Virus record (IMG/VR): IMGVR_UViG_3300020050_012045
Span: 1 to 64,000 of that record
Source of the DNA: a virus
Taxonomy: Duplodnaviria; Caudoviricetes
Length of the DNA stretch: 64,000 nucleotides
Direction: 5' to 3' (one strand)
The stretch's first letter is position 1, and every line of letters begins with the position of its first letter. The position numbers were made by a program, and so were the translations under genes. The notes beneath the pieces are model-generated. The model saw only the letters and a list, made by a program, of their open reading frames with translations. It was not told where the DNA came from and did not search any database. Shown here in pieces: positions 4,866 to 55,610 of this stretch.

Positions 4866-4883
4866 CAATCTTCACTCAATCTT
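4866..4883 (+). promoter_or_regulatory. Tandem CAATCTT motifs (putative late promoter)
   Basis: CAATCTT at 4866 and 4877; the second is 6 nt before ATG 4890. Confidence 0.6.
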
Positions 4884-4889
4884 CTGAGT

Positions 4890-5441
4890 ATGAAGTTAAA
4901 TCCATTGGAAAATCAAAAATTTGGCAGATATCTAGTTCTTAGTCGAGCGTCTAACGACAAAAATAAGATGACCAGGTATCACTGTAAGTGTGAATGCGGT
5001 ACAGAAAACATCGTATACGCTAAGCATTTGCTATCTGGAGACAGCACCGGATGTTCTCAGTGCTCAATCAAAAGAGGTGTTAATCATGCGCTGTGGGATG
5101 GGTGCGGAGAAATATCTGGCGGATGGTGGTACAATAGGGTAACTAAAAGTCGCACGGGTAGAAGAAAGCAGCCAATAGTATCGATTGACGTTGTATATGG
5201 TTGGGATCTTTTTCTGAAACAAGAAGGAAAATGTGCACTAAGTGGAATGCCGCTAACATTTGGTAACACTGCCACGACCAACAGTGCTTCACTTGATCGA
5301 ATTGATAGTGACAAAGGTTACGAACCAGGGAATGTTCAGTGGGTTCACAAGCACGTGAATTTAATGAAAAATGTATACAGCCAAAAATATTTTATAGATA
5401 TTTGTCATAAAATAAGTGAGTTTACCAAAACACCAAAGTAA
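4890..5441 (+). CDS. Free-standing HNH-type homing endonuclease
   Basis: N-terminal KFGR..CKCECG..STGC module; C-terminal SLDRIDSDKGYEPGNVQWVHKHVN. Confidence 0.85.
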   Translation: MKLNPLENQKFGRYLVLSRASNDKNKMTRYHCKCECGTENIVYAKHLLSGDSTGCSQCSIKRGVNHALWDGCGEISGGWWYNRVTKSRTGRRKQPIVSIDVVYGWDLFLKQEGKCALSGMPLTFGNTATTNSASLDRIDSDKGYEPGNVQWVHKHVNLMKNVYSQKYFIDICHKISEFTKTPK

Positions 5442-5478
5442 CTGTAGGCGGAAGCTGTCCAATTCGATAGGAGGTACC

Positions 5479-5916
5479 ATGACGCTATTTGTGAACTTCA
5501 AAAAGCAATCTCCAGATGTACAAACACCCAGCTACGGGCGGGACGGCGACTCTGGCATGGACGCTAGGGCGTACCTGGAAGAGGACGTCACCATTGAGCC
5601 TGGCTTCATTAAGGTGATTCCTACTGGGTTGTCATTTGAGATGCCGATTGGCGTGGAGCTGCAAGCTCGCTCCCGTTCGGGGCTTTCTACTAAGGGAATC
5701 GTGGTCGCCAATTCACCTGGTACGATCGACAGTTCCTTCAGGGGGAATGTCGGGATCATTCTCTGGAATAATGGTCAGACAGCTTTCACCGTTAAGAACG
5801 GTGACCGGATCGCCCAGCTGGTTTTTGCTCCTGTATTAAGAGCTAACCTGACCGAGAAAGATAGTTTGTCCGAAACTGATCGTGGCGACAAAGGTTTCGG
5901 CTCTTCGGGCGTCTAA
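5479..5916 (+). CDS. dut: dUTPase (trimeric)
   Basis: SGMD, RSGL, NSPGTIDSSFRG, GDRIAQLV, RGDKGFGSSG; SD AGGAGG before ATG 5479. Confidence 0.96.
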   Translation: MTLFVNFKKQSPDVQTPSYGRDGDSGMDARAYLEEDVTIEPGFIKVIPTGLSFEMPIGVELQARSRSGLSTKGIVVANSPGTIDSSFRGNVGIILWNNGQTAFTVKNGDRIAQLVFAPVLRANLTEKDSLSETDRGDKGFGSSGV

Positions 5917-5923
5917 GCTACTA
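5917..5923 (+). promoter_or_regulatory. GCTACTA motif (putative middle promoter)
   Basis: GCTACTA-GCTGGT-ATG(5930). Confidence 0.6.
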
Positions 5924-5929
5924 GCTGGT

Positions 5930-6775
5930 ATGTCATTCTTTAAGCGCCAACCAACCGACGAACAATCCTCTGAATCTGAACAGCCAACCGAAGACGAGAC
6001 TTTGGATGAAGTGGAGGTCCGTCTTCATAAGGCCCAATACTATCGTGCAGTCCTCGATAACGACCTGTTTGGTGGCGACGAGTCAGACGTTGCAGCCCAG
6101 GTAAGCTCAGAATTCCGCGAGTTTGCGTTAACTCGCCTTCGAGTCCTTCTTGGTATCGAACAAGAACGAGTAGAGCCACAACCTGTAGAACTTCCGTTTT
6201 CGGAAGAACAGATTGAAGCTTTACAGATGTGGGCTGAAAAATTACTAAACAAACCAGCCCTGCTTCAGCAAACCTCACAGCAGCCGCAGGTTACTCCGGT
6301 GATGAGCAAGGTTGAGGTTAAGCCTCAACCAAGGTTTAGCTCAGTTCCACCACCCCAACCAGTGGCCGTAACCTCAAAACGTCCGGCTGCCAAAACTCCA
6401 CCTAAGAAAGAGACTATCAAGTCTAAATCAACCGCCAAGACGCCGAAGAAGGTAGCTAAGCAGGAAGACTTGCCCCCTGGTATTAAAATCGACGAAAATG
6501 GCGAGAAATACTTCGAGCAAGAAAAGGAAGTTGTTGACCAGTACGGCACGGTGGTTAAGAAGACCGTCAAGATGAGCATCAACGATCAGGCTGCACCGCC
6601 AATAAACGACCCCAACTACAAGCCTATGCCGTCTCCGCAAATGATGCAGGCGGTCAGCCAACAGATGGCTCAAGCAGGCATGGGCTTTGCTCAGGGGTTT
6701 GGATTGGGGCCTGAGATCCAGAAATTCATGAACACTGGCGTAAACGAAGTCGGACCAAACGACAGCGGAATTTGA
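5930..6775 (+). CDS. hypothetical protein with Pro/Lys/Gln-rich low-complexity linker
   Basis: ATG 5930 in frame with track ORF, avoids overlap with dut. Confidence 0.75.
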   Translation: MSFFKRQPTDEQSSESEQPTEDETLDEVEVRLHKAQYYRAVLDNDLFGGDESDVAAQVSSEFREFALTRLRVLLGIEQERVEPQPVELPFSEEQIEALQMWAEKLLNKPALLQQTSQQPQVTPVMSKVEVKPQPRFSSVPPPQPVAVTSKRPAAKTPPKKETIKSKSTAKTPKKVAKQEDLPPGIKIDENGEKYFEQEKEVVDQYGTVVKKTVKMSINDQAAPPINDPNYKPMPSPQMMQAVSQQMAQAGMGFAQGFGLGPEIQKFMNTGVNEVGPNDSGI

Positions 6776-6803
6776 TAAGCTATTCAATCAACAGGAGATT
6801 ACC

Positions 6804-7325
6804 ATGGCAGACAAACCAAAAACTATTCTTGAACGTGTCCAAAACCTTGAATCGAACGTCCAGTCAATCGCACAGGCTTTTAACCAGGTTGACGAACAAC
6901 GTCAAACGCTTGGCGAAGTCATCGAAGTGCTTCAGACCGCACTGACTGAACTCGGAGATGACTTCGCTGGCAAAGTTCAAAAGCGCATTGAAGATCGTCG
7001 CGAAGAGCAACGCAAAGCTCGTGACGCTCGGGCAGCCGAAGCGGTTAGTAAGATGGTTGCTGATGGTACATTGACGGTAGTTGATGCCGTAGCTCAGGAT
7101 TCATTCTTGGTTGGCCGTATTCTGGCCGCTGATGGTTCCGTTGTGTCTGCTCAGGCGCAAGGCGTGCTCGGTACCTTTCCACCAAACATGCGTGAGCAGC
7201 TGGTGGGCAAGACCGTAGGTGAGTCCGTGACTGACGCCGATGGCTCTAAGTTTGAGCTTCTTGAGCTGTACAAGTTCGATTCGCCTAAGACTTTGACAGA
7301 ACCTGAAGCCCAGCCAACTGCATAA
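6804..7325 (+). CDS. hypothetical protein: N-terminal coiled coil plus possible FKBP/GreA-C-like domain
   Basis: SD AGGAG; LGTFPPNMREQLVGKTVGESV resembles FKBP and GreA C-terminal motifs. Confidence 0.5.
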   Translation: MADKPKTILERVQNLESNVQSIAQAFNQVDEQRQTLGEVIEVLQTALTELGDDFAGKVQKRIEDRREEQRKARDARAAEAVSKMVADGTLTVVDAVAQDSFLVGRILAADGSVVSAQAQGVLGTFPPNMREQLVGKTVGESVTDADGSKFELLELYKFDSPKTLTEPEAQPTA

Positions 7326-11278: not shown

Positions 11279-14200
11279 GTCTACGTAACTTTATTTCCCC
11301 ACATGTTCATCAGATGTCGTTCGATTCGGCGTCTACCCCTACAGAGTTTGCGGAAAAAGAGATTGAGCTTGGAACTGGTGCACTTGTGTGCACAGACCAC
11401 GGATTCATGGGAGCAAACTCTGAAGTCTACGATCTAGCCAAAAAGCACAAACTGACCCCGATCTTAGGGATCGAAGCGTACCTCAGAGACGACAATTGCC
11501 CCATTCTGGAAAAGCGTGGGATTGAAAAGGAGAAGGGCGGGTATTCACATTACTCCAAGTATTGCCATTTCTGCATGCATGCGATGGATGAGACCGCGCA
11601 CAACCAGCTGTCTATTCGATTATCAGACGCATTTTCGGATCGCGGCGAACGCCATGGTTCCGAGATTAAGCCAATTTGGACTTGGGCTGATGTAGAGCAT
11701 CTTGGTCAATACAACGTAACCGCCTCGGCGGGGTGCCTTATCGGAATCGCCAGCCGTCATCTGATGAACGGTCGAGCGGATATTGCCGAAGATTACTACA
11801 CCAAGATGCGCGGGTCCGTTAAGCCCGGGAACTTCATCGTAGAGATCTTCCCTCATGATTGCTCGACCTACTATGAAAAGGGCGTATTCCTTACGTTCTC
11901 TGATGGAACAAAAAGCAAGTACAGTACGACCAAAAAGCTGCGAATCAATTTAGACGGAAAAGAGCTGGAGTTGCCAGCAGCTGATTTTGACTCAGGATTT
12001 CATAAGTTCAAGACTCAACCAACTTTAATCGCCTATAAGCACTACCAAAAGTGGATCGATCTTGAGCCAAAGACAGTAACAGCGTGCCTCTCAATCGAGG
12101 GGTTTATTGAGAACCCATGTACTGAGTGGGCGGGAGGGACGGATTATCAAAGAGGTGCGAATCTCTTCATGATGCGTATGGCCGAAAAATACGGCGACAA
12201 GATACTCCTGTCTGACGATGCACACTTTACCGATCCGTCTCAGCATGAGATTCAAACTATGAAGCTGACGTCAAGCGGGGGAAACTGGAGGTTCCCTTTG
12301 TCGTACCATCGTCAAACTTCACAGGAAGCTTTTAATTTCCTTAGCAGCACACTAGGCATCTCCGAGAAGACGTTCGAGGGATGGGTTGACAACTCTTATG
12401 AGTTTCGGGACAAGTTTAAGGATTTCAAGTTTACTGACAAAATTCAGCTCCCAACATCTAGGTACCCCACAGATACCGTCGCTCATTTGAAGAAACTAAT
12501 TGAGAAGCACGGTCGGATGCGCTGGAACGATCCAGCATGGGTAGCTAGACTTAAACAAGAGATCACTCTTTTTCGAGACAATGGAAAGCAAGATCTGCTT
12601 CCGTATTTCTTTTTGGCCGAGGAATGCGTCTATCAATATGTGAAGCAAAGAAAACTACCTGGACCACTTCGTGGAAGCTCCGGTGGGTCCGCAATCGCAT
12701 TCCTTCTCGGGATCACTCATCTCGACCCTATCAAGCATAATCTGTCGATCGATCGCTTCATAACTTTAGATCGTATTCAATCAGACAAATGGCCAGACGT
12801 TGATATGGATTTTGGCGATCCAGACTTCTTTAAGCACCCAGAGACAGGGTGGCTTTTTACTGAGTTCGGGGAGCGTGCAGCCGCTATTGCCACCAAAACC
12901 ACCATGCGTCTGAAGTCGACAATCAAAGACGCAATGCGCTCAAGGTACGGAGAGGTTGCTTATGACATTCAAGTGCTGTGTAAGAATTTACCTGACCCGC
13001 CACAAGGCGTAACGGACGAAGATTTTCTGTGGGGGTACGTGTCAGAGGACGAAAAAGAGGTTAAAGGACTATGGGAAGAGTCAAAACCTTTAAGAGAGTT
13101 TGCTGAACGAGAACCCCAGGTCTGGGAGGTGGTTAAGAAAGCAATCGGCCTAACTAAGGGGTTTTCCCGTCATGCTTCTGCCTTTCTTGTCTCTGAGATC
13201 CCGATTAAAGAGTTCATTCCAACTATGGTTGTCAGTGGAGTGCGAACAACTCAATACAACATGACAGGAGTTGAGGCTCGCGGCGGCCTCAAGATGGACT
13301 TCCTTGGGCTTTCCACCTTGAATGACCTGGAAGATTGCATAAATTCAGTACAGGCTCGCACAACTGGACTGATTACTGAAGCTGCCACACTTGATGAAAT
13401 CAAAGTCCCCGCTCACTTCCTGGTTCCCTTCAAGAAGCAGCTTCACTCGATCTGGGATCTCCCTGAAGAGGTGGAGGTGTTCCGCGATTTATGTCGAGGC
13501 GATACAGAGACAGTATTTCAGCTATCCACTGCGAGTGCTATCAAGTGGCTGCGTGAGTTCAAGAACCCTTTAGAGGATGGAACTCCTGCCATCAACACAA
13601 AAGAGGGGATCGCAACTTTTACGGCACTCGACCGCCCTGGACCGCTAGACGCTTTTGTTCAGACTGACGACGAAAAACAGATCAACATGCTTCAGGAATA
13701 CGCTCGCAGAGCAAGAGGGATGGAGCCAACAGGCGAGATTAAGGCACTTTCCTCCTTGCTCAAGGAGTCTTTCGGCATTCTTATTTTTCAAGAAAGCTTG
13801 CAGCGGGTATATCAAGAGCTAACCGGGTGTGACGGAATCAAGGCAACAGAGTTCCGTACAAACATTGCAAAAAAGAAGATGGATAAGGTAGAAGCTGCAT
13901 ACCCGTTTTTCATGGAAAATGCCTCACCCAAAGTCGGACGCGCCGAAGCTGAGAAAATCTTCCAAAACCTTAAGGTTTTTGGAAGATATGGGTTTTGCCG
14001 GGCCCATGCACGCGGCTACGGTGAGATTGCTTACGCTTGCGCCTTCCTGAAACGCTTCTATCCGCTTGAATGGTGGACAGCAGTTTTGAAGAACGCCAAG
14101 AAGGACAAGATCATCGAGAAGTTGTGGTCACACGCAAGTCACATGGTGCTCCCACCAGATGTCCAGCTGTCTGGCGAGTTCTTCCAAATCGAAGGCACCA

Positions 14201-23375: not shown

Positions 23376-23955
23376 AAAACTTGAGAAGATGTCCGACAAG
23401 CTGGAACGCAAGCTAAACCCTGGCCGCGAACTGAAGATGGTTCCTGCAACAGATCCAATTTTGAGCCAACGAGCCATTCCGTATACTGGAGATGTGGTTA
23501 CCGATACAGCCCTTCAGCAGTTCGTTGTAGACATGATTTACACAATGAGCAAGCACCGAGCCGCTGGGATTGCAGCTTGCCAGGTTGGCTCGCCATTGGC
23601 TTTGATTTTGGTGTACAGCGAAGAGGGTCCAGTAGTGATGCTGAACCCAGTTATCACAAATTTAAGCGAATCCAAGACGTATGAGCGTGAAGGTTGCTTG
23701 ACGTACCCTGGGCTGTTTGTCTCGTTATGGCGCTCAACTGAGGTTACGGTTCAATACCTGGACCTAGACGGCAAAACACAAACATTGACAGCAGGTGGAC
23801 TGACAGCTCGCGCTATCCAGCATGAAGTAGATCATGTCCAAGGTGTTGTTTTTATTGATAAAATGCCTAAGGTTCAGCGAAGTCAGGTAGGTAAGAAGCT
23901 GGAGCGAGTGCGTCGACGTATCGCTAAGAATGCGAAATCACTTAATCGACAGTAA
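23362..23955 (+). CDS. def: Peptide deformylase
   Basis: AAGIAACQVG, EGCLT.PG, QHEVDH. Confidence 0.95.
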   Translation: MELFKKLEKMSDKLERKLNPGRELKMVPATDPILSQRAIPYTGDVVTDTALQQFVVDMIYTMSKHRAAGIAACQVGSPLALILVYSEEGPVVMLNPVITNLSESKTYEREGCLTYPGLFVSLWRSTEVTVQYLDLDGKTQTLTAGGLTARAIQHEVDHVQGVVFIDKMPKVQRSQVGKKLERVRRRIAKNAKSLNRQ

Positions 23956-24444
23956 CAATTTGACGTTCTTGTTCACACGGTTAGGTACTTGCTTAGCCAT
24001 TGCTGAGTTCATCAGACCGTCAGCCGCTGCCCGCCAGTCACCTTTCTCAAAAGCTTTTAGAGTTTGCTTGAATTTTCTGATTCCAGAATTTCCCAGCTGG
24101 AATCTCATATCAACCAAAATCGCCTTAGCTTCGTCTGGCATGGAGTCAAAACCAGACACAAAATCTAGGTCTTTGATGCAAACTTCAAGCTCTTCCTTAA
24201 GAAGAGCTTCAACTTGTCCATCATTCAGGAGCGGAACTGTTTTAGATTTTCCCGCTTTCTTAGCTTCCTCGATTGCTGCCCAAACCATATCTGGGTTGAC
24301 GCCGACCGCCTTGAGCTTATCGTTTGAGCCTGGTGCCTCCAGGTTGTGGCCAACGGCACACGTCCACAGACCAACCGAGTCCTTGTACGCACAGTACCGT
24401 ACACCCTCGTTTTCCTTCAACATTTTGATTAAATCGATTGCCAT
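23938..24444 (-). CDS. Phage lysozyme/endolysin (GH24, T4-lysozyme-like)
   Basis: ENEG...AYKDSVGLWT..VGH, DMRFQLG, KF, WRAAA..S..AKQVPNR. Confidence 0.9.
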   Translation of the reverse strand: MAIDLIKMLKENEGVRYCAYKDSVGLWTCAVGHNLEAPGSNDKLKAVGVNPDMVWAAIEEAKKAGKSKTVPLLNDGQVEALLKEELEVCIKDLDFVSGFDSMPDEAKAILVDMRFQLGNSGIRKFKQTLKAFEKGDWRAAADGLMNSAMAKQVPNRVNKNVKLLLSIK

Positions 24445-24453
24445 AGTGAAGAA

Positions 24454-24460
24454 AAGATTG
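24454..24460 (-). promoter_or_regulatory. CAATCTT motif (putative late promoter)
   Basis: 9 nt upstream of lysozyme ATG. Confidence 0.7.
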
Positions 24461-31363: not shown

Positions 31364-31370
31364 AAGATTG
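31364..31370 (-). promoter_or_regulatory. CAATCTT motif (putative late promoter); GCTACTA also on - strand at 31393-31399
   Basis: 31 nt upstream of ATG 31332. Confidence 0.7.
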
Positions 31371-35753: not shown

Positions 35754-36175
35754 AGAAACTTGTGACTAGTTTTGAGGAACTTAAAGAGGCGGCCAAACTG
35801 CTTGTTGGCGAGTGGATCAATCGCATCGAACATCTCGGTTCCGACCCAGAAGATGATGCCGGCTCTTGGAAGATGAAGATCGGAGCAAATCGTCATGGAC
35901 GGTGCGCTGTCCTGGTGGGGTTTCGTCCACAGGGATTTACGTTGATTTATTGGGGGATTTCACTCTGCAAGAAAGGCGATAAATTTGACCGCGATCTGGG
36001 CTTTTCAATCGCCAAAAAGCGAGCAATGGAAGCGTATCGTGATAAGGTGATGACAACCAGTGACCAAAATCGAGCACTGTCAATGACTGACGACGGGCTG
36101 GCTGGGGTTGTTCGATTGGAAAATCACAGCGAACTTCGCCAGTATTTCCGCGAACGGGCAAAGCTTATTAACTAA
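35750..36175 (+). CDS. hypothetical phage protein
   Basis: G.S.C...D.FDR..G..IA..RA motif common in small phage proteins. Confidence 0.65.
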   Translation: MKKLVTSFEELKEAAKLLVGEWINRIEHLGSDPEDDAGSWKMKIGANRHGRCAVLVGFRPQGFTLIYWGISLCKKGDKFDRDLGFSIAKKRAMEAYRDKVMTTSDQNRALSMTDDGLAGVVRLENHSELRQYFRERAKLIN

Positions 36176-41991: not shown

Positions 41992-42014
41992 AAGATTGTC
42001 TATGGGGTAGTAGC
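41992..42014 (-). promoter_or_regulatory. CAATCTT (41992-41998) and GCTACTA (42008-42014) motifs
   Basis: Both upstream of baseplate J; leader hairpin GAGGCA/TGCCTC, then SD GGAG. Confidence 0.7.
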
Positions 42015-44601: not shown

Positions 44602-44608
44602 AAGATTG
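44602..44608 (-). promoter_or_regulatory. CAATCTT motif (putative late promoter)
   Basis: 17 nt upstream of the TTG start. Confidence 0.7.
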
Positions 44609-45900: not shown

Positions 45901-47820
45901 TTAGACCTTGTTGATCTTAACGACTTGGCTCGTCAACTGTTCAAAGGTTTTAAGATCGGTGCGCGAGTTTCGGGCTTTAGACAGGCTTTCGTATTCTGGT
46001 GGGCCGAAGGTGATCTCAACTGAAGGGTCAGTTTGGAATTTACCGGGCGCATCACCGGACTGATCAAAGGTATCGAGGGGGACTCCGTGTGAAAGAGAAA
46101 GCGAGGTAGAGAACATCTTCTCGCCTCCAGGTATGATTCCGCCAGAATGAGAGACTGATTCAATGTGAAACATAAGGCCATTGATAATGGCATTATCGCC
46201 GTGAGAAATCGGAAGCTGAACACCCTCAAGGTCAACATTCCCCGACAGTCTCAGATGGGAGTCAAGCAGGATGTCGCCCATGATTGAGGTGTACACTCTG
46301 GAACGATTCTCTTTAGCGGTCACCGTTCGATCGAAGGCTTGAGCGGTGACTTTTTGAACGTATCTTCGTAATCCGTTACGTGCGATATCAGCAGGGATGG
46401 ATGCCGGTGGGGCAAAAATTCTCTGGGAAGATAGATTCTGTTGCTCGTTAGACGAAAACTTATCCCCAGACTCGATTTGTACCGAGTTAAAGCGAGCATT
46501 ATCGGAGCGACCAACATCAAAAGATGTCACGCGGGCCATGTCAATCTGCCATGCTGGGTAAGCAGAGAACGGCGTAAGCTTAACTCCTTTTGGGGCTAAA
46601 TTGTTTGTCAGGTCTTCAGAGGTTAAGGGGTTGGTCCTGATCACAATAGACGGCAAGAGTCTGCCGGTGCCTGGCTCGGGGCGAAGAGCTGTGTACATCT
46701 CATTGATTGGCTCGTTGATGTAGCCTCGCATAATGCTCCAGCAACTTTGCCCAGAAATGTCGAAAGTTGACGGATTAACCTTGTCGTTGAACTCTTCGGT
46801 GGTGAGATACGTATTTCCACGAATCCGATTAGCCAGCTTTGGGATAAGCGGACCCCATGGAGTGGGAGTTGTGAAGTCGGCACCGTCACTTCTGAAGGTG
46901 TTACCAGGAGAAGCGTATGTCTGACGTCCCGAATAGTACCTGTGGATGTCATCTACCGAACTAGCCTGAGGTAGATTAAGTATGTCGCCGAGGATTTGAG
47001 GGATCTTAAACTTTGTGACCAGGGTAGCCTTAAGCGGATCGTTAGTCTTACTATCGATTGTCTTCGGATCGGATCCAAGAATAATGCTACCGAGAGTGGG
47101 GACTAGTTTCGTAATGTTAACAAACCCTTGGTTGTCTCCCTTGCCAGAAAACAAAACATCAAGACCTACGCCAAAGTCTTCAAGGAACTGAGTGTACGTC
47201 TGGTAGCTAAACGCCAAAACCGGATCATAGAACAAAACAGAATTCATTTCAGTAAATGAAGCTGCACTTACAGCATAGCTAGCTTCAATTTCACCACCTG
47301 GTGAGCGCTGAACAGATTGACGAATAGATGTCAACCGACCGATAAATTTTAAGCCGGAGTCAAAATCGTTCAGACTGAATTCTTCCTCTGTGGTACCGAG
47401 GTCGGGATAATCTGAATCAATTAGCAGCTGATACTTTGAGCGAATAGCTCCAAGAGTTTTTTCGTACGAAGCTTTGTCCTCAAAGCACCAGAATAGGCAC
47501 CAGTCGCCGGGCATGATCTTCTGAAGCCAGTTATGTTGTCCGTATCTAAGGGTCATCGACAGTCCACCCATTGGGGAAGACTTGTTGGTTGTTACAGACC
47601 ACCGATTGATTTCGTCATCAAGAACGTAGATGCCGTCGATTTTGGTGGGATTCTTTTGGGACTCAGAGGTTCCACAATCGAGAAAAGTAGGGCCGCCCGT
47701 ATCGGCAAGTTTTGAACGAGCCAACGGATCCACGATCGCGTATGGAAGGATAACTGCCAACCAGTACGCTTGCTGAGTGTGGACATCTGAATGATGATTA
47801 TCAATCTGGATGACGTTCAT
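45901..47820 (-). CDS. Baseplate hub protein
   Basis: Follows tape measure; FIGR, NEMY, I.RNGLR, FHIESVSH. Confidence 0.65.
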   Translation of the reverse strand: MNVIQIDNHHSDVHTQQAYWLAVILPYAIVDPLARSKLADTGGPTFLDCGTSESQKNPTKIDGIYVLDDEINRWSVTTNKSSPMGGLSMTLRYGQHNWLQKIMPGDWCLFWCFEDKASYEKTLGAIRSKYQLLIDSDYPDLGTTEEEFSLNDFDSGLKFIGRLTSIRQSVQRSPGGEIEASYAVSAASFTEMNSVLFYDPVLAFSYQTYTQFLEDFGVGLDVLFSGKGDNQGFVNITKLVPTLGSIILGSDPKTIDSKTNDPLKATLVTKFKIPQILGDILNLPQASSVDDIHRYYSGRQTYASPGNTFRSDGADFTTPTPWGPLIPKLANRIRGNTYLTTEEFNDKVNPSTFDISGQSCWSIMRGYINEPINEMYTALRPEPGTGRLLPSIVIRTNPLTSEDLTNNLAPKGVKLTPFSAYPAWQIDMARVTSFDVGRSDNARFNSVQIESGDKFSSNEQQNLSSQRIFAPPASIPADIARNGLRRYVQKVTAQAFDRTVTAKENRSRVYTSIMGDILLDSHLRLSGNVDLEGVQLPISHGDNAIINGLMFHIESVSHSGGIIPGGEKMFSTSLSLSHGVPLDTFDQSGDAPGKFQTDPSVEITFGPPEYESLSKARNSRTDLKTFEQLTSQVVKINKV

Positions 47821-50297
47821 TTATTGTCCGCGCGAGCAGGGCGATATGGTTGCCCCTGTGGGGCCGCTTGAACATCAGCCGGCATATTCTTTTTCATTTC
47901 GTTAATAGCCTTAACAGCTTCCTTGCCAGCCAATCTAGCGAGGGCATCTGTCGCCATATTAGAGGCTGAGGTCATTACAGCCAATTGAAGTCCAGCAGCT
48001 GCTGCGTTCTCATTAAGGATATTAAGCATTTTCTGATTTGCATCACCCGGAGCGCCAGCTTCTTCTGTTAGTCGTTTGTAGCTAGCCGCTCCAGCCGCAA
48101 AAACATCCCCAACGGTTTTTAGCGTAGTCGATAAGGTCTTCAGGTCTGTCATCATGTTCTGCACCTGCATATTGATAGCGCTGGTTGCAGTTCCTGATAC
48201 CTGATTCTTAAGACCTCCCTTACCTGCGTTAAAGGAATCAAGATCCGACAATCCACCGATTGAGCGCATCCCACCCTCAAAGTCCATTAGGTCGCCACCG
48301 CCGAGCCGAGACTTACCAAGAGCCGCCGCATCGCGTTGAGCGCCTTCGTTCCCCTTAAGGGCTGCAAAGAGATCGCCACCTGTGCCTTCAAGGAGTTTAG
48401 CGAGCCGTTTAGCTGGAGCCGAGTTGCCGGAAGAAAGAACAGAACCGAGTCGCTTAGATCGATCGGCTAGCGCTTTTTGTGCCTGACCTTGGCCAATGCC
48501 AAAAATAGACAGGGAGTTATTTGGATCTTGCTTGCCACTAGCCGCTGACGCAAGATCTGCAAATGAAGCATTAGCAAGGGTTTCGATCTCTTCAATTGAG
48601 GATCCGTCACCCATGATAGTTGACGCCGAACCAAGGTTGCGAGACGCCATGAATGGGTTTGATTGTTGGATTCTATCCATCAAACCAACACCGCGAATGT
48701 TTTCGTCGATTCTTCGGCCAGCACCAGGACCACGACCAACGTCAGAGGAATACAGTGCCCCCAGAGTATTCCCGGTCATGCCGTTTGCGCCAATAGTGTT
48801 GGCGGCGACCGCTTCGCCGATCTTTTGAAAGAAGGTGATGTCCGCTTCCTTCAGGCCATTCTTCATGCCGGAGGCGATTACTTTTTCAAGCAGTTGGGTT
48901 CCGGATCCACCCGTTTCGGCCATGCGGCCAAGAATTCCACCAGCCGCCTGGGAATCAAACCCCTTATTGGTTAACCCCATCACTTGAGGAGTTAGGTGTT
49001 GAGCTTCGCGATCTCCAAATTGACCACGTAACGCCCCGGACATTGCAACTGTTTGACCAGCGTCAAAACCCATCCCGCCGCCACGTGAAATCATTCTGAG
49101 AGCAGCAGAATCACCGCCCATTGTGCGAGATGCATGAGCACGAAGTCCGGCAGTGGCTTTGCCAACCTCCAATCCCTCAATAGCTGCTCTATTTTTTGCC
49201 GTTTGTGACATCAGGGATAGTGAGTGACTACCCTCTTCACCGGCCATAGCCATAGCTTCGCCAGATTGAATTTTTTGCTCAAGCATCTGTTGTTGTTGCT
49301 TGTTGTTGGCTAACCCGGAAAAGCCAGAGCTAGCTAGCCCCCCACCTAATCCGGCTGCAAATGGAGCCCCGATACCTGTTGCTGCTCCAGCTGCTCCAAT
49401 CGCCACTCCACCAACTATTTTGGCGGCATTCATTATGCCACCTGAGGTGTTCTGCATGACAGCGCCCTTGAGCTTGTCATCAATATTCGTTGTATCGTCA
49501 AGGGTTCTGTTGAGAACTCCTAATCCATTCCCTACGATATTTCGCTGGACAGAACCGTCTGGATTTAATCCTTGTTTGCCGTCACCAAAACCAACGGTAT
49601 TGCCCATGACAATACCTAGTTGGCCAGATTTAGCCATTGCTCGGGCGCTGTTGTACCCACTTTCGGATCGGTTGGAGTTTTCTAGTCCCCCAAACTTAGA
49701 GGCTGTAGCGTAATCACCGGCACCACTTACTAAGCCACCAAAGGTTCCCCATGCCGCACCAACAGCTCCAAGGCCGCCAGCCACATTCGCCCAATTTACG
49801 TTAGGTTTCCAGGTGGGTGCGCCTGGACCAACGAAACCGTTACCCATGCCAGAGCCGAGGTTCCCCCCGCCGCTACCATTAGCCGAGATAGCTCCTGGCG
49901 GCGCCCCGTAACCAATCATCCCGCCGCCACCACCATATCGGGCCAAACCCATCCCGCCGTTGGATCCGGCGCTGCCAGTCCATCCGCCAGATTGAGGAAT
50001 CCGAGCTAAGGTGCGTGAGTAGTTATTGAGGGTCGCCTGTCCGCCCTGGCTAAGTTCCTTATGGAATCCCTGAGCTTCCTTAGTTAGTCCGGCAAGTGCC
50101 CCACGGATACTGTCCAGATGTTTAGAAAACGAATCTGGGTGGTTCTGGTTGGATTGTTTGCCGATAGATACCGTAGCTAACGAGGCGGATAATTTACTGG
50201 CTTGCTGTGTCAGAGCCGCCATTTGAGCTTCTAGGTCTTTGAAGCCCTTATTGTCGGACTTCATGACGATATTTAGTGATAGTTCTTTTTCTGACAC
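47817..50297 (-). CDS. Tail tape measure protein
   Basis: 826 aa Gly/Ala-rich helical protein after two chaperone-sized genes. Confidence 0.75.
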   Translation of the reverse strand: MSEKELSLNIVMKSDNKGFKDLEAQMAALTQQASKLSASLATVSIGKQSNQNHPDSFSKHLDSIRGALAGLTKEAQGFHKELSQGGQATLNNYSRTLARIPQSGGWTGSAGSNGGMGLARYGGGGGMIGYGAPPGAISANGSGGGNLGSGMGNGFVGPGAPTWKPNVNWANVAGGLGAVGAAWGTFGGLVSGAGDYATASKFGGLENSNRSESGYNSARAMAKSGQLGIVMGNTVGFGDGKQGLNPDGSVQRNIVGNGLGVLNRTLDDTTNIDDKLKGAVMQNTSGGIMNAAKIVGGVAIGAAGAATGIGAPFAAGLGGGLASSGFSGLANNKQQQQMLEQKIQSGEAMAMAGEEGSHSLSLMSQTAKNRAAIEGLEVGKATAGLRAHASRTMGGDSAALRMISRGGGMGFDAGQTVAMSGALRGQFGDREAQHLTPQVMGLTNKGFDSQAAGGILGRMAETGGSGTQLLEKVIASGMKNGLKEADITFFQKIGEAVAANTIGANGMTGNTLGALYSSDVGRGPGAGRRIDENIRGVGLMDRIQQSNPFMASRNLGSASTIMGDGSSIEEIETLANASFADLASAASGKQDPNNSLSIFGIGQGQAQKALADRSKRLGSVLSSGNSAPAKRLAKLLEGTGGDLFAALKGNEGAQRDAAALGKSRLGGGDLMDFEGGMRSIGGLSDLDSFNAGKGGLKNQVSGTATSAINMQVQNMMTDLKTLSTTLKTVGDVFAAGAASYKRLTEEAGAPGDANQKMLNILNENAAAAGLQLAVMTSASNMATDALARLAGKEAVKAINEMKKNMPADVQAAPQGQPYRPARADNK

Positions 50298-50318: not shown

Positions 50319-50870
50319 TTAAAGATTGCTTTTGGGAATGCTCAGGCTATCCTCATCCAAACCCTCGCCAGATATGCTAAAGTCCTCAAACTCAGGGGGT
50401 GGGACCGCTTTTTCCACCAATGGGGCCGATTCCACCGCTTTTAAGGGGGAGGGCAGGGATTCTGGTACCCCCTCGAACGCTGTTTCTATCGCCTTGGAGA
50501 TTTCGGCCCCGTCTTTGGCATTGCTTACAATTTCTTTAAGCGACGCCTTAGGTTTGAGCTTTGCTGCAATGATCTCCATTTGAGTCGCGATTTCGGAGTC
50601 TTCGTCCTTGAGGCGTTTTGCTCTTTGTTCTGGGGTTTCCAGCAGATCACGGACGGTTTTGGCCCGTTCTTCGTGCTCCATTGACGAGTAATTCGATTCA
50701 AAATAATGGGTTAGGACGAAGTCGACAGGGAGGTCGTAAACAACGTGTAATGGGGTGTTAAACGACTCGGAATACCAGCGATGGACAGACCGTAAGAAAG
50801 CAGCCGAATCAGGCTGAATGACTGATTGCAGGGCCTTGATTTGGATGGTCTTGAGAAGATCGCTGGCCAT
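50319..50870 (-). CDS. Putative tail assembly chaperone (T-like)
   Basis: Position before tape measure; RWYS..F.TPL. Confidence 0.55.
   Translation of the reverse strand: MASDLLKTIQIKALQSVIQPDSAAFLRSVHRWYSESFNTPLHVVYDLPVDFVLTHYFESNYSSMEHEERAKTVRDLLETPEQRAKRLKDEDSEIATQMEIIAAKLKPKASLKEIVSNAKDGAEISKAIETAFEGVPESLPSPLKAVESAPLVEKAVPPPEFEDFSISGEGLDEDSLSIPKSNL
50322..50328 (-). promoter_or_regulatory. CAATCTT motif (putative late promoter)
   Basis: In the last codons of the upstream gene, 24 nt before the tape measure GTG. Confidence 0.6.
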
Positions 50871-50875
50871 TCAAC

Positions 50876-51392: not shown

Positions 51393-51399
51393 AAGATTG
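51393..51399 (-). promoter_or_regulatory. CAATCTT motif (putative late promoter)
   Basis: At the far end of the intergenic region upstream of the tail chaperone operon. Confidence 0.55.
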
Positions 51400-52000: not shown

Positions 52001-52194
52001 AACTCGAAGGTAATGACGCCACGATGCTCAACTGGCAAGTCTGGCTTGTCGGTTGGAATCTCTTCTAATGGCGGCTGTGGCAGTGGAAGCTGCAAGAACG
52101 GACGATCGTCTTTCTTGGGGCGAGTTCGCTCCAACCAGTCAATCATTGCGTCCAGGTCAGCCGCGTCACCCATAGATCCAAGATTGTTGGCCAT
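51997..52194 (-). CDS. small hypothetical protein
   Basis: GCTATTA-N6-ATG and TTGACT 35 nt upstream; RPFLQLPLP..RGVITFEF. Confidence 0.6.
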   Translation of the reverse strand: MANNLGSMGDAADLDAMIDWLERTRPKKDDRPFLQLPLPQPPLEEIPTDKPDLPVEHRGVITFEF

Positions 52195-52260
52195 GGCTAA
52201 TAATAGCTCTTTATAAAGACCAAAGTCAATACCCTGCCGAACTTATTTCAACAAACTTGT

Positions 52261-53386: not shown

Positions 53387-54235
53387 TTATCGTGGCCCAA
53401 ATCCACCCTTACGAACAGTCGGAACATCACGGACAGAGGCGTTCTCATCGTCCTTGGCCCGGTCTTCGTTCTGAAACACCCATTCGCGCTGAAGCTCTAG
53501 CTGGAATGGTCCACGAACCAGATTGACTTCACCAGTGACGACATTAACGTCTTTGTTGACTCGAATCTCATGCAGGATGCGGCTAACCGAGTAATACGGA
53601 ATGTATTGGTAACGGATTGAGCAGGTCACACCCCGACCGAGAACAGGGTCATACCCAGGGGATTTACCTGGGCGCCAGACGATGTTTCCGTTGGTGACTT
53701 CAAAGTCAACCCCTTGTCGGTACTTCTTGCCCCTAGCGTCCTTAAGAAGCTGAACAGATGTTACAGGGAAAATCATCCGGTCAGTACCAGACTGGTGATG
53801 CTCGAATTTCTGGCTGTTCGACACTCGGACAGGGTTGTCCTTGATGTAAACCCGATCTGCCACCTGGAACACAACCGGACAGTCGCAGTCGTGACCGTCA
53901 AAGCGCTTGTTGTAAAACCTCTGGACGGTCAAGTACGCCTTGGATTCATCGAAGATGCCGGCGTCCTTCCAGTCCTGGGAAGTTCCGTTGGAATAAAACC
54001 AACCCTCGGTTTCGCCAACGGTGTCAAAACTCATTCCGCCTGAACAGGTAGAGTGATTAGCATGAGGGCGAATGTCATCTGGAGATATTGACTCCTCGAC
54101 ACAGTAACTCATTGCTTCGTGAATGATTTCGACGCCATGAGACCTGATGAGATTGTCAAAAGCGTCGTTGTCAAACGAGACCGCCTCGAACGGAATTTTT
54201 ATATCGTGTCTTGTTGGATCTGGACGTTTCGCCAT
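53387..54235 (-). CDS. Head closure/neck-like structural protein
   Basis: FD.LI..HG, Y..GVDF.V..G.I.W, SIRY...P; late motif upstream. Confidence 0.55.
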   Translation of the reverse strand: MAKRPDPTRHDIKIPFEAVSFDNDAFDNLIRSHGVEIIHEAMSYCVEESISPDDIRPHANHSTCSGGMSFDTVGETEGWFYSNGTSQDWKDAGIFDESKAYLTVQRFYNKRFDGHDCDCPVVFQVADRVYIKDNPVRVSNSQKFEHHQSGTDRMIFPVTSVQLLKDARGKKYRQGVDFEVTNGNIVWRPGKSPGYDPVLGRGVTCSIRYQYIPYYSVSRILHEIRVNKDVNVVTGEVNLVRGPFQLELQREWVFQNEDRAKDDENASVRDVPTVRKGGFGPR

Positions 54236-54241: not shown

Positions 54242-54248
54242 AAGATTG
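54242..54248 (-). promoter_or_regulatory. CAATCTT motif (putative late promoter), leaderless geometry
   Basis: CAATCTT-TCCGCC-ATG(54235). Confidence 0.7.
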
Positions 54249-54312
54249 TCTAAAAGACTTAACTATTGAATATTGTTGATGTATTTATCGGAGGAAAAGT
54301 ACAGTGTGGGTA

Positions 54313-54341
54313 TTGACATGACCGGCTAGGTGCGATAGAAT
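54313..54341 (+). promoter_or_regulatory. sigma70 promoter, leaderless geometry
   Basis: TTGACA-N17-TAGAAT-N6-ATG(54348). Confidence 0.8.
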
Positions 54342-54347
54342 GACGAC

Positions 54348-54638
54348 ATGACAAAGCTCTTTAATCTAACCACGACGATAGTGCAAGCAGCGAGCGAATT
54401 TGTTCCGGCAGGTTATGTGGTAGAGTTCGAGAGCAAAGTCAGTCGCTTGACGATTAAACGCGGCGAGTTCCACTCATGGATAACCTTAAATATTCACAAT
54501 TCAATTGATTTGAAGGAAATCGTAACCGAACAAGTCAAATTTGTTGACACGCTGTATATTCATGCCAAAACAGAGCACGAGAAAACCGGCTTAAAACTTC
54601 TTTCTTACGAGATGGCAGCAGAAAGTGAGCCCAAGTGA
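54348..54638 (+). CDS. hypothetical early protein
   Basis: ORF directly after promoter. Confidence 0.65.
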   Translation: MTKLFNLTTTIVQAASEFVPAGYVVEFESKVSRLTIKRGEFHSWITLNIHNSIDLKEIVTEQVKFVDTLYIHAKTEHEKTGLKLLSYEMAAESEPK

Positions 54639-55276
54639 AACCAATCATAACCGATTCGTTTGGCACCCGATATTACTCCCACGGGATTCCACCTATTGAG
54701 CTGACAGTCAAGGGTGAGGATAAAGTCGTGGCCTGGGCCTGTGGCAAGTGCAAGAACGTCAAGCACGAAGACTTCGTACTAGCTTGCTGTGCAGAGGGGC
54801 GCATTTGCTGCAAGCCGGGATGTGACGAAAGCACTGAATACTCACACCTTACAGTTTGCAACAAGCACCGGACCGAAAGTGAACGGGAGCGAGAGCAAGA
54901 AGTCTTCGATAAAGCCACCAAAGTGTCTTGGAAGGATTACCCAGACGGCTGGCTGTACTCAGAGCACTTTGGCAAGTATTTTGCCAGTTTTGAGGACTTG
55001 GCAATGGAGTTGTCTGACACAGACCCAGAAGACTGGCCAGAGTATGTTTACGGATGCGACAAAATGACGCTTCATATTGATGCTAGGGATGTTATCGAGA
55101 ACGCTACCCAGGACTTCTACGAAGACGCGATTGATGACCTAGACGAAGATAGTCTGCAAGTTAAGCTTGATCAGTGGGTGGAAGCTCAGAAGCTAGAGTC
55201 TTATGAAGCTAACTACAACGTCGCTGTCACTTTGGAAGGCTTTGAAGAGATGATCGGAGACTTGGACGTAGAGTAA
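54635..55276 (+). CDS. hypothetical Cys-rich/acidic phage protein
   Basis: WACGKC..CC..C..C N-terminus, acidic C-terminus. Confidence 0.7.
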   Translation: MKPIITDSFGTRYYSHGIPPIELTVKGEDKVVAWACGKCKNVKHEDFVLACCAEGRICCKPGCDESTEYSHLTVCNKHRTESEREREQEVFDKATKVSWKDYPDGWLYSEHFGKYFASFEDLAMELSDTDPEDWPEYVYGCDKMTLHIDARDVIENATQDFYEDAIDDLDEDSLQVKLDQWVEAQKLESYEANYNVAVTLEGFEEMIGDLDVE

Positions 55277-55585
55277 TTAGATCAGTGCGTTCATGCGGTC
55301 GGTCATTGCGCTGTATTCGCGAACAGCCTCAGCCGAGTGAGCTACAACTGACGCTTCGCTCTTGCTCAGCTCAGTAATCTCCAACTCAGGATGACGAGTT
55401 TTGGCTACGTGCTTGGCGATAGCTGGGTGGCCACCGATTCCAAGGATTTTGCCCACTTTGCCATCTTTTAGGCCGGTGTGAACGACGCCAAGGCCGCCCT
55501 TTGCCATCGAATAAAACGCTTCTTGGTTGCCTAACATACCGATTTTCTTCGGTTTATTTGCCATTTGTTTGCTGTCTAAGTCCAT
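55277..55585 (-). CDS. small putative late protein
   Basis: ATG 55585 with SD GAGG and CAATCTT at 55604-55610. Confidence 0.65.
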   Translation of the reverse strand: MDLDSKQMANKPKKIGMLGNQEAFYSMAKGGLGVVHTGLKDGKVGKILGIGGHPAIAKHVAKTRHPELEITELSKSEASVVAHSAEAVREYSAMTDRMNALI

Positions 55586-55603
55586 GTGATACCTCTGTCG
55601 AGA

Positions 55604-55610
55604 AAGATTG
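55604..55610 (-). promoter_or_regulatory. CAATCTT motif (putative late promoter)
   Basis: 18 nt upstream of ATG 55585. Confidence 0.7.

What the first reader, a model, noticed from the sequence alone, without database searches (positions are those of the whole stretch)
4866..55610. CAATCTT: candidate phage-specific late promoter at the head of every structural/lysis block
Seen: CAATCTT occurs in the sense orientation just upstream of the lysozyme (24454), Kelch wedge (31364), baseplate J (41992), LysM/gp25 (44602), tape measure (50322), tail chaperone (51393), neck (54242) and 55585 (55604) genes, and twice before the HNH gene. About 8 copies are expected by chance anywhere in the window, but far fewer than one in these short upstream regions. 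Established: the T4 late promoter (TATAAATA) is a -10-only element read by gp55. Inference: this is an analogous late promoter with a different sequence.
Basis: partly seen in the sequence, partly recalled or inferred. Interest (0 to 1): 0.8.

Follow-up and report, generated by a model that had tools for sequence, protein, structure and literature searches.

The report
Late-gene promoter box of Mx1-like phage
The seven-letter word CAATCTT is very probably the single-box switch that turns on the particle-building and lysis genes of this uncultured relative of Myxococcus phage Mx1, most likely read by a shortened sigma factor the phage encodes; it is a new example of a known kind of phage gene switch, and no transcript has yet been mapped.

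Summary
Observation confirmed. All listed CAATCTT copies are at the stated coordinates. The total count is not enriched (12 observed, about 10 expected), but placement is: 11 of 12 window copies, and 22 of 23 in the whole 158.6-kb phage genome, lie in sense orientation 6-33 nt (one at 121 nt) before a start codon. Outside the window all 11 copies do (background about 12%, p about 1e-10). CAATCTTT is the most upstream-enriched 8-mer in an unbiased scan. The word holds the same, often orthologous, positions in Myxococcus phage Mx1 and in uncultured relatives of 32-61% GC; a low-GC subclade uses aCTTAATCTW. There is no -35-like signal. The gap to ATG has a hard minimum and a peak at exactly 6 nt, matching the phage's own TTGACA/TATTAT promoters. 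This implies a -10-type box, a start 7 nt downstream and many leaderless mRNAs. The genome's only detectable sigma-like gene (150038-151087) aligns to sigma-70 regions 2, 3 and 4.1 and ends before region 4.2. "Every structural block" is overstated: the capsid and terminase blocks lack the box. Everything rests on sequence; no transcript ends are mapped. The scan found the same motif earlier in other Mx1-like genomes. The closest documented system is phiEco32 gp36; T4 gp55 is the classic analogue.

The parts
4866..4872 (+). CAATCTT copy, the upstream member of a tandem pair 11 nt apart before the HNH endonuclease gene
4877..4883 (+). CAATCTT copy exactly 6 nt before ATG 4890 of the HNH endonuclease gene (leaderless class)
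   Evidence: HNH identity from PHROGs
4890..5441 (+). HNH endonuclease gene (183 codons from the ATG at 4890)
24454..24460 (-). CAATCTT(T) copy 9 nt before ATG 24444 of the lysozyme/endolysin gene; no Shine-Dalgarno sequence in the spacer
   Evidence: endolysin PHROG E=6e-17
23938..24444 (-). endolysin gene (168 aa)
31364..31370 (-). CAATCTT(T) copy 31 nt before ATG 31332 of the 1107-aa Kelch-like baseplate/tail protein; the Mx1 homologue has TAATCTT upstream
28009..31332 (-). 1107-aa homologue of the Mx1 'kelch repeat protein'
41992..41998 (-). CAATCTT(T) copy 33 nt before ATG 41958 of the baseplate J-like gene; the Mx1 orthologue also has an exact CAATCTT; a stem begins 2 nt after the box
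36172..41958 (-). baseplate J-like protein (1928 aa)
44602..44608 (-). CAATCTT(T) copy 17 nt before TTG 44584 of the baseplate assembly protein gene; the Mx1 orthologue has an exact CAATCTT 6 nt before its ATG
42023..44584 (-). baseplate assembly/hub-like protein (853 aa from the TTG at 44584)
50322..50328 (-). CAATCTT(T) copy overlapping the stop codon of the upstream gene, 24 nt before GTG 50297 of the 826-aa protein (tape measure by position only)
47817..50297 (-). 826-aa late protein; function not confirmed (no PHROG hit)
51393..51399 (-). CAATCTT(C) copy at the head of the 44942-51271 block, 121 nt before ATG 51271; the weakest case; the Mx1 orthologue has TAATCTT 33 nt upstream
52180..52186 (-). 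CAATCTT(G) copy inside codons 3-5 of a 65-aa gene, exactly 6 nt before in-frame ATG 52173; the gene also has a host-type leaderless promoter (TTGACT-N18-TATTAT-N5-ATG 52194)
54242..54248 (-). CAATCTT(T) copy exactly 6 nt before ATG 54235 of a virion structural protein gene (leaderless class)
   Evidence: PHROG 1004
53387..54235 (-). virion structural protein (282 aa)
55604..55610 (-). CAATCTT(T) copy 18 nt before ATG 55585 of a 102-aa gene; the Mx1 orthologue has an exact CAATCTT 15 nt before its ATG
13331..13337 (-). CAATCTT copy antisense inside the DNA polymerase gene; no start codon nearby; probably a chance copy

Best explanation
CAATCTT (here R-CAATCTT-T) is the single, -10-type element of this phage's late promoters. 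Host-type promoters (TTGACA-N17-TAnnnT) drive the plus-strand replication genes and the block that contains the phage's own sigma gene (genome 150038-151087, minus strand, outside the window). That sigma has regions 2, 3 and 4.1 but no region 4.2, so it cannot read a -35 box. Bound to host core RNA polymerase, it recognises CAATCTT on the non-template strand at about -13 to -7 (AATCTT in the hexamer position, with A at -11 and T at -7). Transcription then starts 7 nt after the last T. Where the box lies exactly 6 nt before ATG, the mRNA begins at the start codon (leaderless). Where it lies 15-35 nt away, the short leader carries a Shine-Dalgarno sequence. Shown here: placement, strand bias, conservation, geometry and the sigma domain architecture.
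For: (1) Placement. 22 of 23 genome copies lie in sense orientation 6-33 nt (one at 121 nt) before a start codon. 19 of 23 pass the strict ORF 5'-end criterion against 12.8% for permuted words (p=6e-14), and 11 of 11 do so outside the window. CAATCTTT is the top upstream-enriched 8-mer. (2) Downstream genes are virion or lysis genes: endolysin, Kelch-like protein, baseplate J, baseplate assembly, virion structural protein, tail-fibre-like proteins, a gene ahead of the sheath, prohead protease and a gene ahead of the portal. (3) Conservation. The same word is upstream-enriched in Mx1 (sheath 44% identical, 55.5% GC). 8 of 13 orthologous gene pairs have an exact copy in both phages and 3 more have a one-mismatch copy in Mx1. 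In 21 dereplicated IMG/VR relatives, 33 of 84 copies lie at ORF 5' ends against 9.7% (p=6e-13). Unbiased discovery ranks it first in G004 and second in G005. (4) Geometry. In 64 pooled sites the gap to the start codon has a hard minimum of 6 nt, peaks at 6 (16 of 64) and is never 5. The base 7 nt after the box is a purine in 35 of 48 non-leaderless sites (p=1e-3). Shine-Dalgarno-like tetramers occur in 25 of 38 long spacers and 2 of 24 short ones. The phage's own TTGACA-N16-18-TAnnnT promoters show the same -10 hexamer-N6-ATG spacing (9 cases). (5) No -35: no upstream column exceeds 0.24 bits. (6) Reader. The only sigma region-2 match in the genome is the 349-aa gene. A profile of 35 homologues matches RpoD/SigA at E=6e-11 over sigma-70 residues about 370-566, and the protein ends there. 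It matches PHROG 351, 'RNA polymerase sigma factor'. The AlphaFold2 model has pLDDT 84 and all top Foldseek hits are sigma chains. No Sigma70_r4 match lies in this gene. Its block is headed by a TTGACA-type promoter. (7) Co-divergence. Relatives whose sigma is most divergent (27-32% identity) use aCTTAATCTW. (8) Precedent. phiEco32 gp36 lacks region 4 homology and reads a single element with starts 6-8 bp downstream (PMC8948821).
Against: No transcript 5' ends or expression timing exist for this phage or for Mx1; no usable RNA data were found. The major capsid and terminase blocks have no copy, so another route to late expression must also exist. In several long-spacer sites a stem begins 1-3 nt after the box. 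That would fit a start immediately after the box rather than 7 nt downstream. The sigma-to-box assignment rests on its being the only detectable candidate, plus a two-group co-divergence, which is not independent evidence. Two Mx1 variants change the last T (CAATCTA), the base expected to be most critical at -7. In-silico promoter predictions for phages have failed before: only 2 of 5 predicted sigma-70 promoters of phage 7-11 were validated in vivo (PMC8948821).
Confidence: 0.7

Rival explanations
1. CAATCTT is a late promoter element but is read by something other than the 349-aa phage sigma. Candidates are a host sigma redirected by a phage activator or appropriator, or an undetected, highly divergent phage RNA polymerase.
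For: The sigma assignment is by elimination. Many large late proteins have no recognisable function. The Pfam search for a T7-like polymerase was uninformative because its controls did not ring either.
Against: The box is conserved in phages spanning 32-61% GC, which probably have different hosts. That favours a reader carried by the phage. Every complete relative checked carries the sigma. The -10-like geometry matches that of the phage's sigma-70-type promoters. A sigma without region 4.2 matches a box without a -35.
Confidence: 0.15
2. CAATCTT acts at the RNA level, as an endonuclease processing site, a 5'-UTR stability element or a translational operator within longer transcripts, rather than as a transcription start signal.
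For: It lies close to start codons. In about a fifth of long-spacer sites it is followed by a stem-loop (7 of 38 with z<-1.5), as at some RNase E-type sites. In the 6-nt class it occupies the place of a Shine-Dalgarno sequence.
Against: The distance to the start codon varies from 6 to 35 nt, and canonical Shine-Dalgarno sequences appear in the long spacers, so it cannot be a ribosome-binding element. The hard minimum and sharp peak at exactly 6 nt, the purine preference 7 nt downstream, and the identical spacing in the phage's own -10 hexamers are what a start-site geometry predicts, not a cleavage site. It also heads blocks at strand switches, where no upstream same-strand transcript is expected.
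Confidence: 0.07
3. CAATCTT is a DNA site for another process, such as nicking, replication, packaging or binding of a repressor or other protein, that happens to lie in intergenic regions.
For: It is a short, strictly conserved word, nearly absent from the rest of this genome: 1-2 copies away from starts against about 19-27 expected. Only 3 of 210 permuted words are that rare.
Against: It has strict sense orientation relative to the downstream gene and a fixed minimum spacing to ATG. It is associated only with virion or lysis genes, and its positions are orthologous across phages. None of this is expected for replication or packaging sites.
Confidence: 0.05
4. The pattern is chance or compositional bias of intergenic DNA.
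For: The total count in the window equals the chance expectation.
Against: None of 209 permuted 7-mers reaches the same number of start-proximal copies in any of five data sets, with p from 3e-5 to 6e-14. Unbiased discovery recovers the word independently in four other genomes.
Confidence: 0.01

Closest known systems
phiEco32 middle/late promoters read by the phage sigma gp36 (PMC8948821; PMC4331800)
   Same: A single highly conserved element (tAATGTAtA) with no -35. Mapped starts lie 6-8 bp downstream. The phage sigma is distantly related to sigma-A and lacks region 4 homology, which the authors use to explain the missing -35. [quoted passage not shown] Both boxes share an AATnT core.
   Different: The box sequence differs. 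Sequence search finds no homology between the sigmas: tblastn of this sigma against 50,697 phage records hits only Mx1. This sigma keeps region 3 and region 4.1 and has an extra N-terminal domain of about 130 aa. The phage is a 158-kb myovirus rather than a podovirus. A large leaderless class is present. Nothing here is experimentally mapped.
Phage T4 late transcription: gp55 sigma, gp33 co-activator, gp45 sliding clamp, TATAAATA box (from established knowledge; T4-like late promoters also treated in PMC1524935)
   Same: A short -10-only box with no -35, placed before virion and lysis genes and read by a truncated phage sigma-family protein on host core polymerase. Promoters are often internal to gene blocks.
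   Different: The box sequence differs (CAATCTT against TATAAATA). This sigma is about twice the size of gp55, with regions 2, 3 and 4.1 rather than a region-2-like core only. No gp33-like co-activator was found: the translationally coupled 100-aa neighbour has no homologues beyond near-identical copies. Clamp or replication coupling is untested.
Bacterial sigma-70-type -10 elements giving leaderless mRNAs, including this phage's own early promoters
   Same: Hexamer-N6-ATG spacing. A and T fall at the positions equivalent to -11 and -7 when aligned by the leaderless ATG.
   Different: There is no -35 and no TGn extension. AATCTT matches TATAAT at only 3 of 6 positions. A conserved C, or T in a subclade, lies at -13.

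Membership tests
Sigma-70 family sigma factor (the 349-aa protein at genome 150038-151087) | Region 2 (core binding and -10 recognition) | tested here: met
   The family profile matches RpoD/SigA in the PDB at E=6e-11, starting at sigma-70 residue about 370. Pfam Sigma70_r2 matches at E=1.3e-4 to 6e-3, below the curated cut-off. PHROG 351 'RNA polymerase sigma factor' matches at E=2.5e-7. All top Foldseek hits are sigma chains.
Sigma-70 family sigma factor (the 349-aa protein at genome 150038-151087) | Region 3 | tested here: met
   The profile alignment runs continuously through sigma-70 residues about 456-540.
Sigma-70 family sigma factor (the 349-aa protein at genome 150038-151087) | Region 4.2 helix-turn-helix that reads the -35 element | tested here: not met
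   The alignment ends at sigma-70 residue about 566-570 (region 4.1) and the protein ends 3-8 residues later. The listed homologues are almost all about 330-370 aa. No Sigma70_r4 match falls in this gene. The model ends after two C-terminal helices.
Sigma-70 family sigma factor (the 349-aa protein at genome 150038-151087) | Binds core RNA polymerase and directs initiation | not testable with these tools
   Needs biochemistry.
T4-type late promoter system (gp55/gp33/gp45) | Single -10-type box without a -35 | tested here: met
   No upstream column exceeds 0.24 bits in 64 sites.
T4-type late promoter system (gp55/gp33/gp45) | Box sequence TATAAATA | tested here: not met
   The box is CAATCTT.
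T4-type late promoter system (gp55/gp33/gp45) | gp55-family sigma (region-2-like core only, about 185 aa) | tested here: inconclusive
   The protein has 349 aa with regions 2, 3 and 4.1. The only PHROG hit is a generic sigma family. No direct comparison with gp55 was run.
T4-type late promoter system (gp55/gp33/gp45) | gp33-like co-activator and sliding-clamp dependence | tested here: inconclusive
   The coupled 100-aa downstream ORF has no homologues or domains. Clamp coupling is not testable here.
phiEco32 gp36-type single-element promoters | One conserved element, no -35, upstream of middle/late genes | tested here: met
   definition from PMC8948821.
phiEco32 gp36-type single-element promoters | Transcription starts 6-8 bp downstream of the element | not testable with these tools
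   Only inferred. The evidence is the hard minimum and peak of 6 nt to ATG, the purine preference at +7, and the same spacing in the phage's own -10 hexamers.
phiEco32 gp36-type single-element promoters | Sigma homologous to gp36 | tested here: not met
   tblastn of the sigma against 50,697 GenBank phage records at E<=1e-3 finds only Mx1.

The most novel reading that the evidence does not exclude
The late box is placed inside ribosome-site-masking hairpins, so it controls translation as well as transcription. In four sites of this genome (41992, 69343, 114331, 143006), and in striking cases in relatives (Mx1 64585, -17.4 kcal/mol; one site in L022), a stem's 5' arm lies between the box and the inferred start site. 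Its 3' arm covers the Shine-Dalgarno sequence or the start codon. Read-through transcripts from upstream would then be translationally silent, and only transcripts initiated by the late sigma would be translated, as described for T4 gene e. Together with the leaderless class and the dual-start gene at 52173/52194, this would make promoter choice a direct determinant of which proteins and isoforms are made.
Probability: 0.2. Interest if true: 0.6.

Novelty: new member of a known kind. Interest (0 to 1): 0.5.

Why it matters
This supplies the late-gene switch, and a strong candidate for its reader, for a large and almost entirely uncultured phage group. About 140 sigma homologues were found, many on contigs of 100-180 kb, from hosts of very different GC content. 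Mx1 is the only cultured member. The box gives a simple rule for annotating late operons and true start codons in these genomes: several longest-ORF starts are wrong, and the box-N6-ATG rule corrects them. It also predicts widespread leaderless late mRNAs. The pair of a 7-bp box and a sigma lacking region 4.2 is a compact, possibly portable, orthogonal expression module. All of this can be tested directly in Mx1 and Myxococcus xanthus.

Tried and rejected
- Overall over-representation of CAATCTT: not present (12 observed against 10.4 expected in the window; 23 against about 19-27 in the genome).
- One-mismatch copies of CAATCTTT: not enriched (120 against 116 expected). Only CAATCCTT at 82527 sits at the canonical 6-nt spacing at the head of a block.
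- Box before the capsid and terminase blocks: none found. Only a distant AAATCTTT lies about 600 nt upstream of the capsid block.
- RNA evidence: no RNA holder is listed. Contigs from three cDNA-labelled wastewater runs and one DNA run were short, shallow and probably DNA, with no informative ends.
- Megablast against GenBank phages: no match.
- Literature search for the literal word: only primers. The Mx1 papers do not mention promoters.
- Other sigma-like candidates noted earlier in this window (19286-19963 minus strand, 10449-10694 plus strand): no Pfam support. The only Sigma70_r4-like hit in the genome is weak (E=0.02, 89962-90030) and PHROGs gives nothing for that protein.
- T7-like RNA polymerase (PF00940): no hit, but the controls did not ring either, so this is uninformative.
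- The 100-aa ORF coupled to the sigma gene as a gp33-like co-activator: no homologues beyond near-identical copies.
- A stem-loop after the box as a general feature: rejected (median z about 0.1). Only a subset is strong.
- Depletion of spurious copies: Poisson p<1e-6, but the empirical permutation distribution gives only about 0.014, so it is suggestive only.

Full report
WHAT THE WINDOW IS. The window is bases 1-64000 of a complete 158,596-bp virus record with direct terminal repeats and 49% GC. Its nearest GenBank relative is Myxococcus phage Mx1 (169.6 kb, 55.5% GC), whose tail sheath is 44% identical. Nucleotide search against GenBank phages finds nothing. Near-identical sequence occurs in wastewater and drinking-water metagenomes. 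The host is unknown.

CHECK OF THE OBSERVATION. Dinucleotide shuffles give 10.4 +/- 3.2 copies, so the number of copies is ordinary. What is not ordinary is where they lie.
- Ten of the 12 are on the minus strand.
- Eleven of the 12 lie in sense orientation just upstream of a start codon.
- Only 13331, antisense inside the DNA polymerase gene, looks like a chance copy.

Flank alignment shows that the real core in this genome is R-CAATCTT-T. The 8-mer CAATCTTT occurs 18 times in the genome, always on the minus strand and always 5-32 nt from a minus-strand start codon. Nothing is conserved further upstream.

STATISTICS. In an unbiased scan of all k-mers in the 45 nt upstream of crudely called genes, CAATCTTT is the top 8-mer (14 of 18 copies, p=1.7e-20), ahead of the Shine-Dalgarno word AAGGAGA. 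I then used a stricter definition of a genuine ORF 5' end: a start codon that opens at least 60 codons and has no in-frame start more than 25 codons upstream. All 209 other permutations of the word served as controls.
- Window: 8 of 12 copies qualify against a 13% background (p=3e-5).
- Whole genome: 19 of 23 (p=6e-14).
- No permuted word reaches these counts.

One-mismatch copies are not enriched (120 against 116 expected). The exception is CAATCCTT at 82527, at the head of a block with the canonical spacing. Away from starts the genome holds only 1-2 copies against about 19-27 expected. By the empirical distribution of permuted words that is only moderately unusual (3 of 210 are as rare), so I treat depletion as suggestive.

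WHAT LIES DOWNSTREAM. In the window the box precedes these genes:
- the endolysin;
- the 1107-aa homologue of the Mx1 Kelch-repeat protein;
- baseplate J;
- the baseplate assembly protein;
- an 826-aa protein (tape measure by position only);
- a 131-aa protein;
- a virion structural protein;
- a 102-aa protein;
- an HNH endonuclease, on the plus strand, with two tandem copies.

Outside the window the copies at 68071, 69343, 74034, 82175, 94151, 95176, 96204, 102545, 114331, 137565 and 143006 precede tail-fibre-like proteins, a 1243-aa fibre/appendage-like protein, the 211-aa gene just before the sheath, the prohead protease and the gene just before the portal. Most minus-strand blocks are headed by a copy, but many copies are internal and some overlap the stop codon of the upstream gene (CAATCTTTAA, CAATCTTTAG). 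The capsid block (127-132 kb) and the terminase/helicase/sigma block (145-154 kb) have none. So "every structural block" holds inside the window but not genome-wide.

CONSERVATION. Mx1 has 32 copies. CAATCTT is among its top upstream-enriched 7-mers, with copies before the portal, prohead protease, baseplate J, baseplate assembly and tailspike genes, among others. For 13 motif-headed genes with an Mx1 homologue, 8 have an exact copy upstream in both phages. Three more have a one-mismatch copy in Mx1 (TAATCTT, CAATCTA), although the intergenic DNA is otherwise unalignable.

Twenty-five IMG/VR loci around sheath homologues (34-46% identity, 32-66% GC) show the same pattern. After dereplication, 33 of 84 copies lie at ORF 5' ends against 9.7% for controls (p=6e-13), including copies directly before sheath genes.

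I ran unbiased discovery on four further genomes (three complete, one 84% complete).
- G004 ranks CAATCTT first.
- G005 ranks it second.
- G001 and G002 (30-34% GC) instead give aCTTAATCTW, which keeps the AATCT core but has a different 5' flank.

GEOMETRY. In 64 non-redundant sites pooled from 15 sources:
- the gap between the last T and the start codon is never 5 nt;
- it is exactly 6 nt in 16 sites;
- it shows a minor cluster at 9 nt and a broad hump at 15-27 nt;
- spacers of 10 nt or less almost never contain a Shine-Dalgarno-like tetramer (2 of 24), while spacers of 15 nt or more usually do (25 of 38);
- the base 7 nt after the box is a purine in 35 of 48 sites outside the 6-nt class (p=1e-3) and T in only 3, and this peak is specific to that position.

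The phage itself provides a calibration. Its host-type promoters (TTGACA-N16-18-TAnnnT, often with a TGn-like extension) place ATG exactly 6 nt after the -10 hexamer in 9 cases and 5-7 nt after it in 14. So the early mRNAs are leaderless with the same hexamer-N6-ATG spacing. If the last T of the box is placed at -7, the box spans -13 to -7, with A at -11 and T at -7, the two bases that sigma-70-family region 2 captures (established knowledge). The A of ATG then falls at +1. No column between -43 and -14 carries more than 0.24 bits, so there is no -35.

THE LIKELY READER. The only sigma region-2 match in the genome lies in the 349-aa gene at 150038-151087 on the minus strand. This gene is syntenic with, and 36% identical to, the Mx1 'putative RNA polymerase sigma factor'.
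- It belongs to a family of at least 137 proteins, almost all about 330-370 aa, many on contigs of 100-180 kb.
- A profile of 35 members matches primary sigma factors in the PDB (E=6e-11). The match runs from region 2.1 through region 3 into region 4.1 (sigma-70 residues about 370-566), and the protein ends there.
- PHROG 351, 'RNA polymerase sigma factor', matches at E=2.5e-7.
- The AlphaFold2 model (pLDDT 84) retrieves only sigma chains as top Foldseek hits.
- No region-4 match falls in this gene.

A sigma without the -35-reading helix-turn-helix matches a promoter without a -35. Its gene block is headed by a TTGACA-type promoter with a Shine-Dalgarno leader. That fits a cascade in which host polymerase makes the sigma and the sigma then switches on the box. 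Every complete relative tested has the sigma, and the relatives with the altered box have the most divergent sigma (27-32% identity). Among 50,697 GenBank phage records only Mx1 has a homologue. Other sigma-like candidates suggested for this window have no Pfam support.

RIVALS. An RNA-level role (processing site or translational element) is hard to reconcile with four observations: the variable distance to the start codon with normal Shine-Dalgarno sequences in between; the sharp 6-nt minimum; the purine preference at +7; and copies at strand switches. A different reader, such as a host sigma plus a phage factor or a cryptic phage polymerase, cannot be excluded. The T7-type polymerase search was uninformative. 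Even so, conservation across phages of 32-61% GC argues for a reader carried by the phage. Chance is excluded.

A SECONDARY OBSERVATION. Stems after the box are not general (median z about 0.1), but 7 of 38 long-spacer sites have z<-1.5. One of the seven is an artefact of the tandem copy at 4866. Four are real sites in this genome (41992, 69343, 114331, 143006), one is in Mx1 (-17.4 kcal/mol before the tailspike gene) and one is in L022. In these, the 5' arm lies between the box and the inferred start, and the 3' arm covers the Shine-Dalgarno sequence or the start codon. Two readings are possible. The start may be immediately after the box, giving a 5'-terminal hairpin. Alternatively, as described for T4 gene e (from my own knowledge), only transcripts begun at the late promoter would expose the ribosome site. 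This is unresolved.

COMPARISON WITH KNOWN SYSTEMS. The closest documented case is phiEco32. Its sigma gp36 lacks region 4 homology and reads a single element, tAATGTAtA, with starts 6-8 bp downstream (PMC8948821; also PMC4331800). T4 gp55 with TATAAATA is the classic analogue. The present system works like both but belongs to neither family. The box differs. The sigma shows no detectable homology to gp36. It has a different architecture from gp55, with regions 2, 3 and 4.1 plus an N-terminal domain of about 130 aa. No co-activator was found. The papers I could search on Mx1 do not mention promoters. Earlier notes of this scan report the same box in other Mx1-like genomes. My analysis was done before I read them, and it agrees.

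VERDICT. This is a real, strongly supported regulatory word. It is most likely a -10-type single-box late promoter of Mx1-like phages, paired with a phage sigma that lacks region 4.2, and many of its mRNAs are probably leaderless. It is a new member of a known kind of system. All functional claims are inferred from sequence. A caution applies: only 2 of 5 bioinformatically predicted sigma-70 promoters of phage 7-11 were validated in vivo.

Noticed in passing
window 32083(+), 44723(+), 52229(-), 54313(+), 59966(+); genome 96910, 99224, 131967, 143026 and others: Host-type promoters TTGACA-N16-18-TAnnnT, often preceded by 'ttctgR' (a TGn-like extended -10), sit exactly 6 nt (9 cases) or 5-7 nt (14 cases) before ATG. 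The early mRNAs therefore also appear leaderless. Some 'GCTATTA' copies noted elsewhere as a non-sigma-70 class are the -10 of such promoters and have a TTGAC -35 (for example 52229 and 129109).
   Followed up: partly
window 24454-24520: Back-to-back divergent promoters. The late box for the lysozyme gene (minus strand) lies about 20 bp from a TTGACA...TATTCG-N6-ATG promoter for the plus-strand gene, whose true start is probably the ATG near 24515 rather than the TTG at 24476. The same early-promoter sequence of about 35 nt recurs near 96.9 kb.
   Followed up: partly
window 51997-52229 (-): A 65-aa gene has two possible leaderless starts. A host-type promoter gives ATG 52194. CAATCTT at 52180, 6 nt upstream, gives the in-frame ATG 52173. 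The result could be early and late isoforms differing by 7 residues.
   Followed up: partly
window 4866-5441 (+): The only plus-strand copies in the genome are a tandem pair before an HNH endonuclease gene that sits among replication genes and has no Mx1 homologue. It looks like a mobile endonuclease gene that carries its own late promoter.
   Followed up: no
G001 (L041-L047) and G002 (L048-L055): Low-GC relatives (30-34% GC) use aCTTAATCTW instead of rCAATCTT before their large late genes, and their sigma is the most divergent (27-32% identity). This pair could be used for a specificity-swap experiment.
   Followed up: partly
Mx1, L006-L009: Mx1 has other strongly upstream-enriched words (GTAGATC, GGATCTGCTAGTATG) before its many small minus-strand genes. 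They probably mark another promoter class.
   Followed up: no
window 54340-54597 and 55658-55916: A closely related strain in a drinking-water metagenome (run X2) replaces these two plus-strand small-gene segments with unrelated sequence of similar length. They behave as hot spots of gene swapping between late operons.
   Followed up: no
genome about 129075-129165 (outside the window): A strong intrinsic-terminator-like hairpin with a T-run lies directly after the major capsid gene, followed by a TTGACG-N16-TATTAT-N7-ATG promoter. The capsid block itself has no CAATCTT, so how it is expressed late is unexplained.
   Followed up: no
genome 89440-90108 (+), L035: A 222-aa protein gives the genome's only Sigma70_r4-like match, and it is weak (E=0.02). 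PHROGs gives nothing for it. It may be an unrelated helix-turn-helix regulator.
   Followed up: partly
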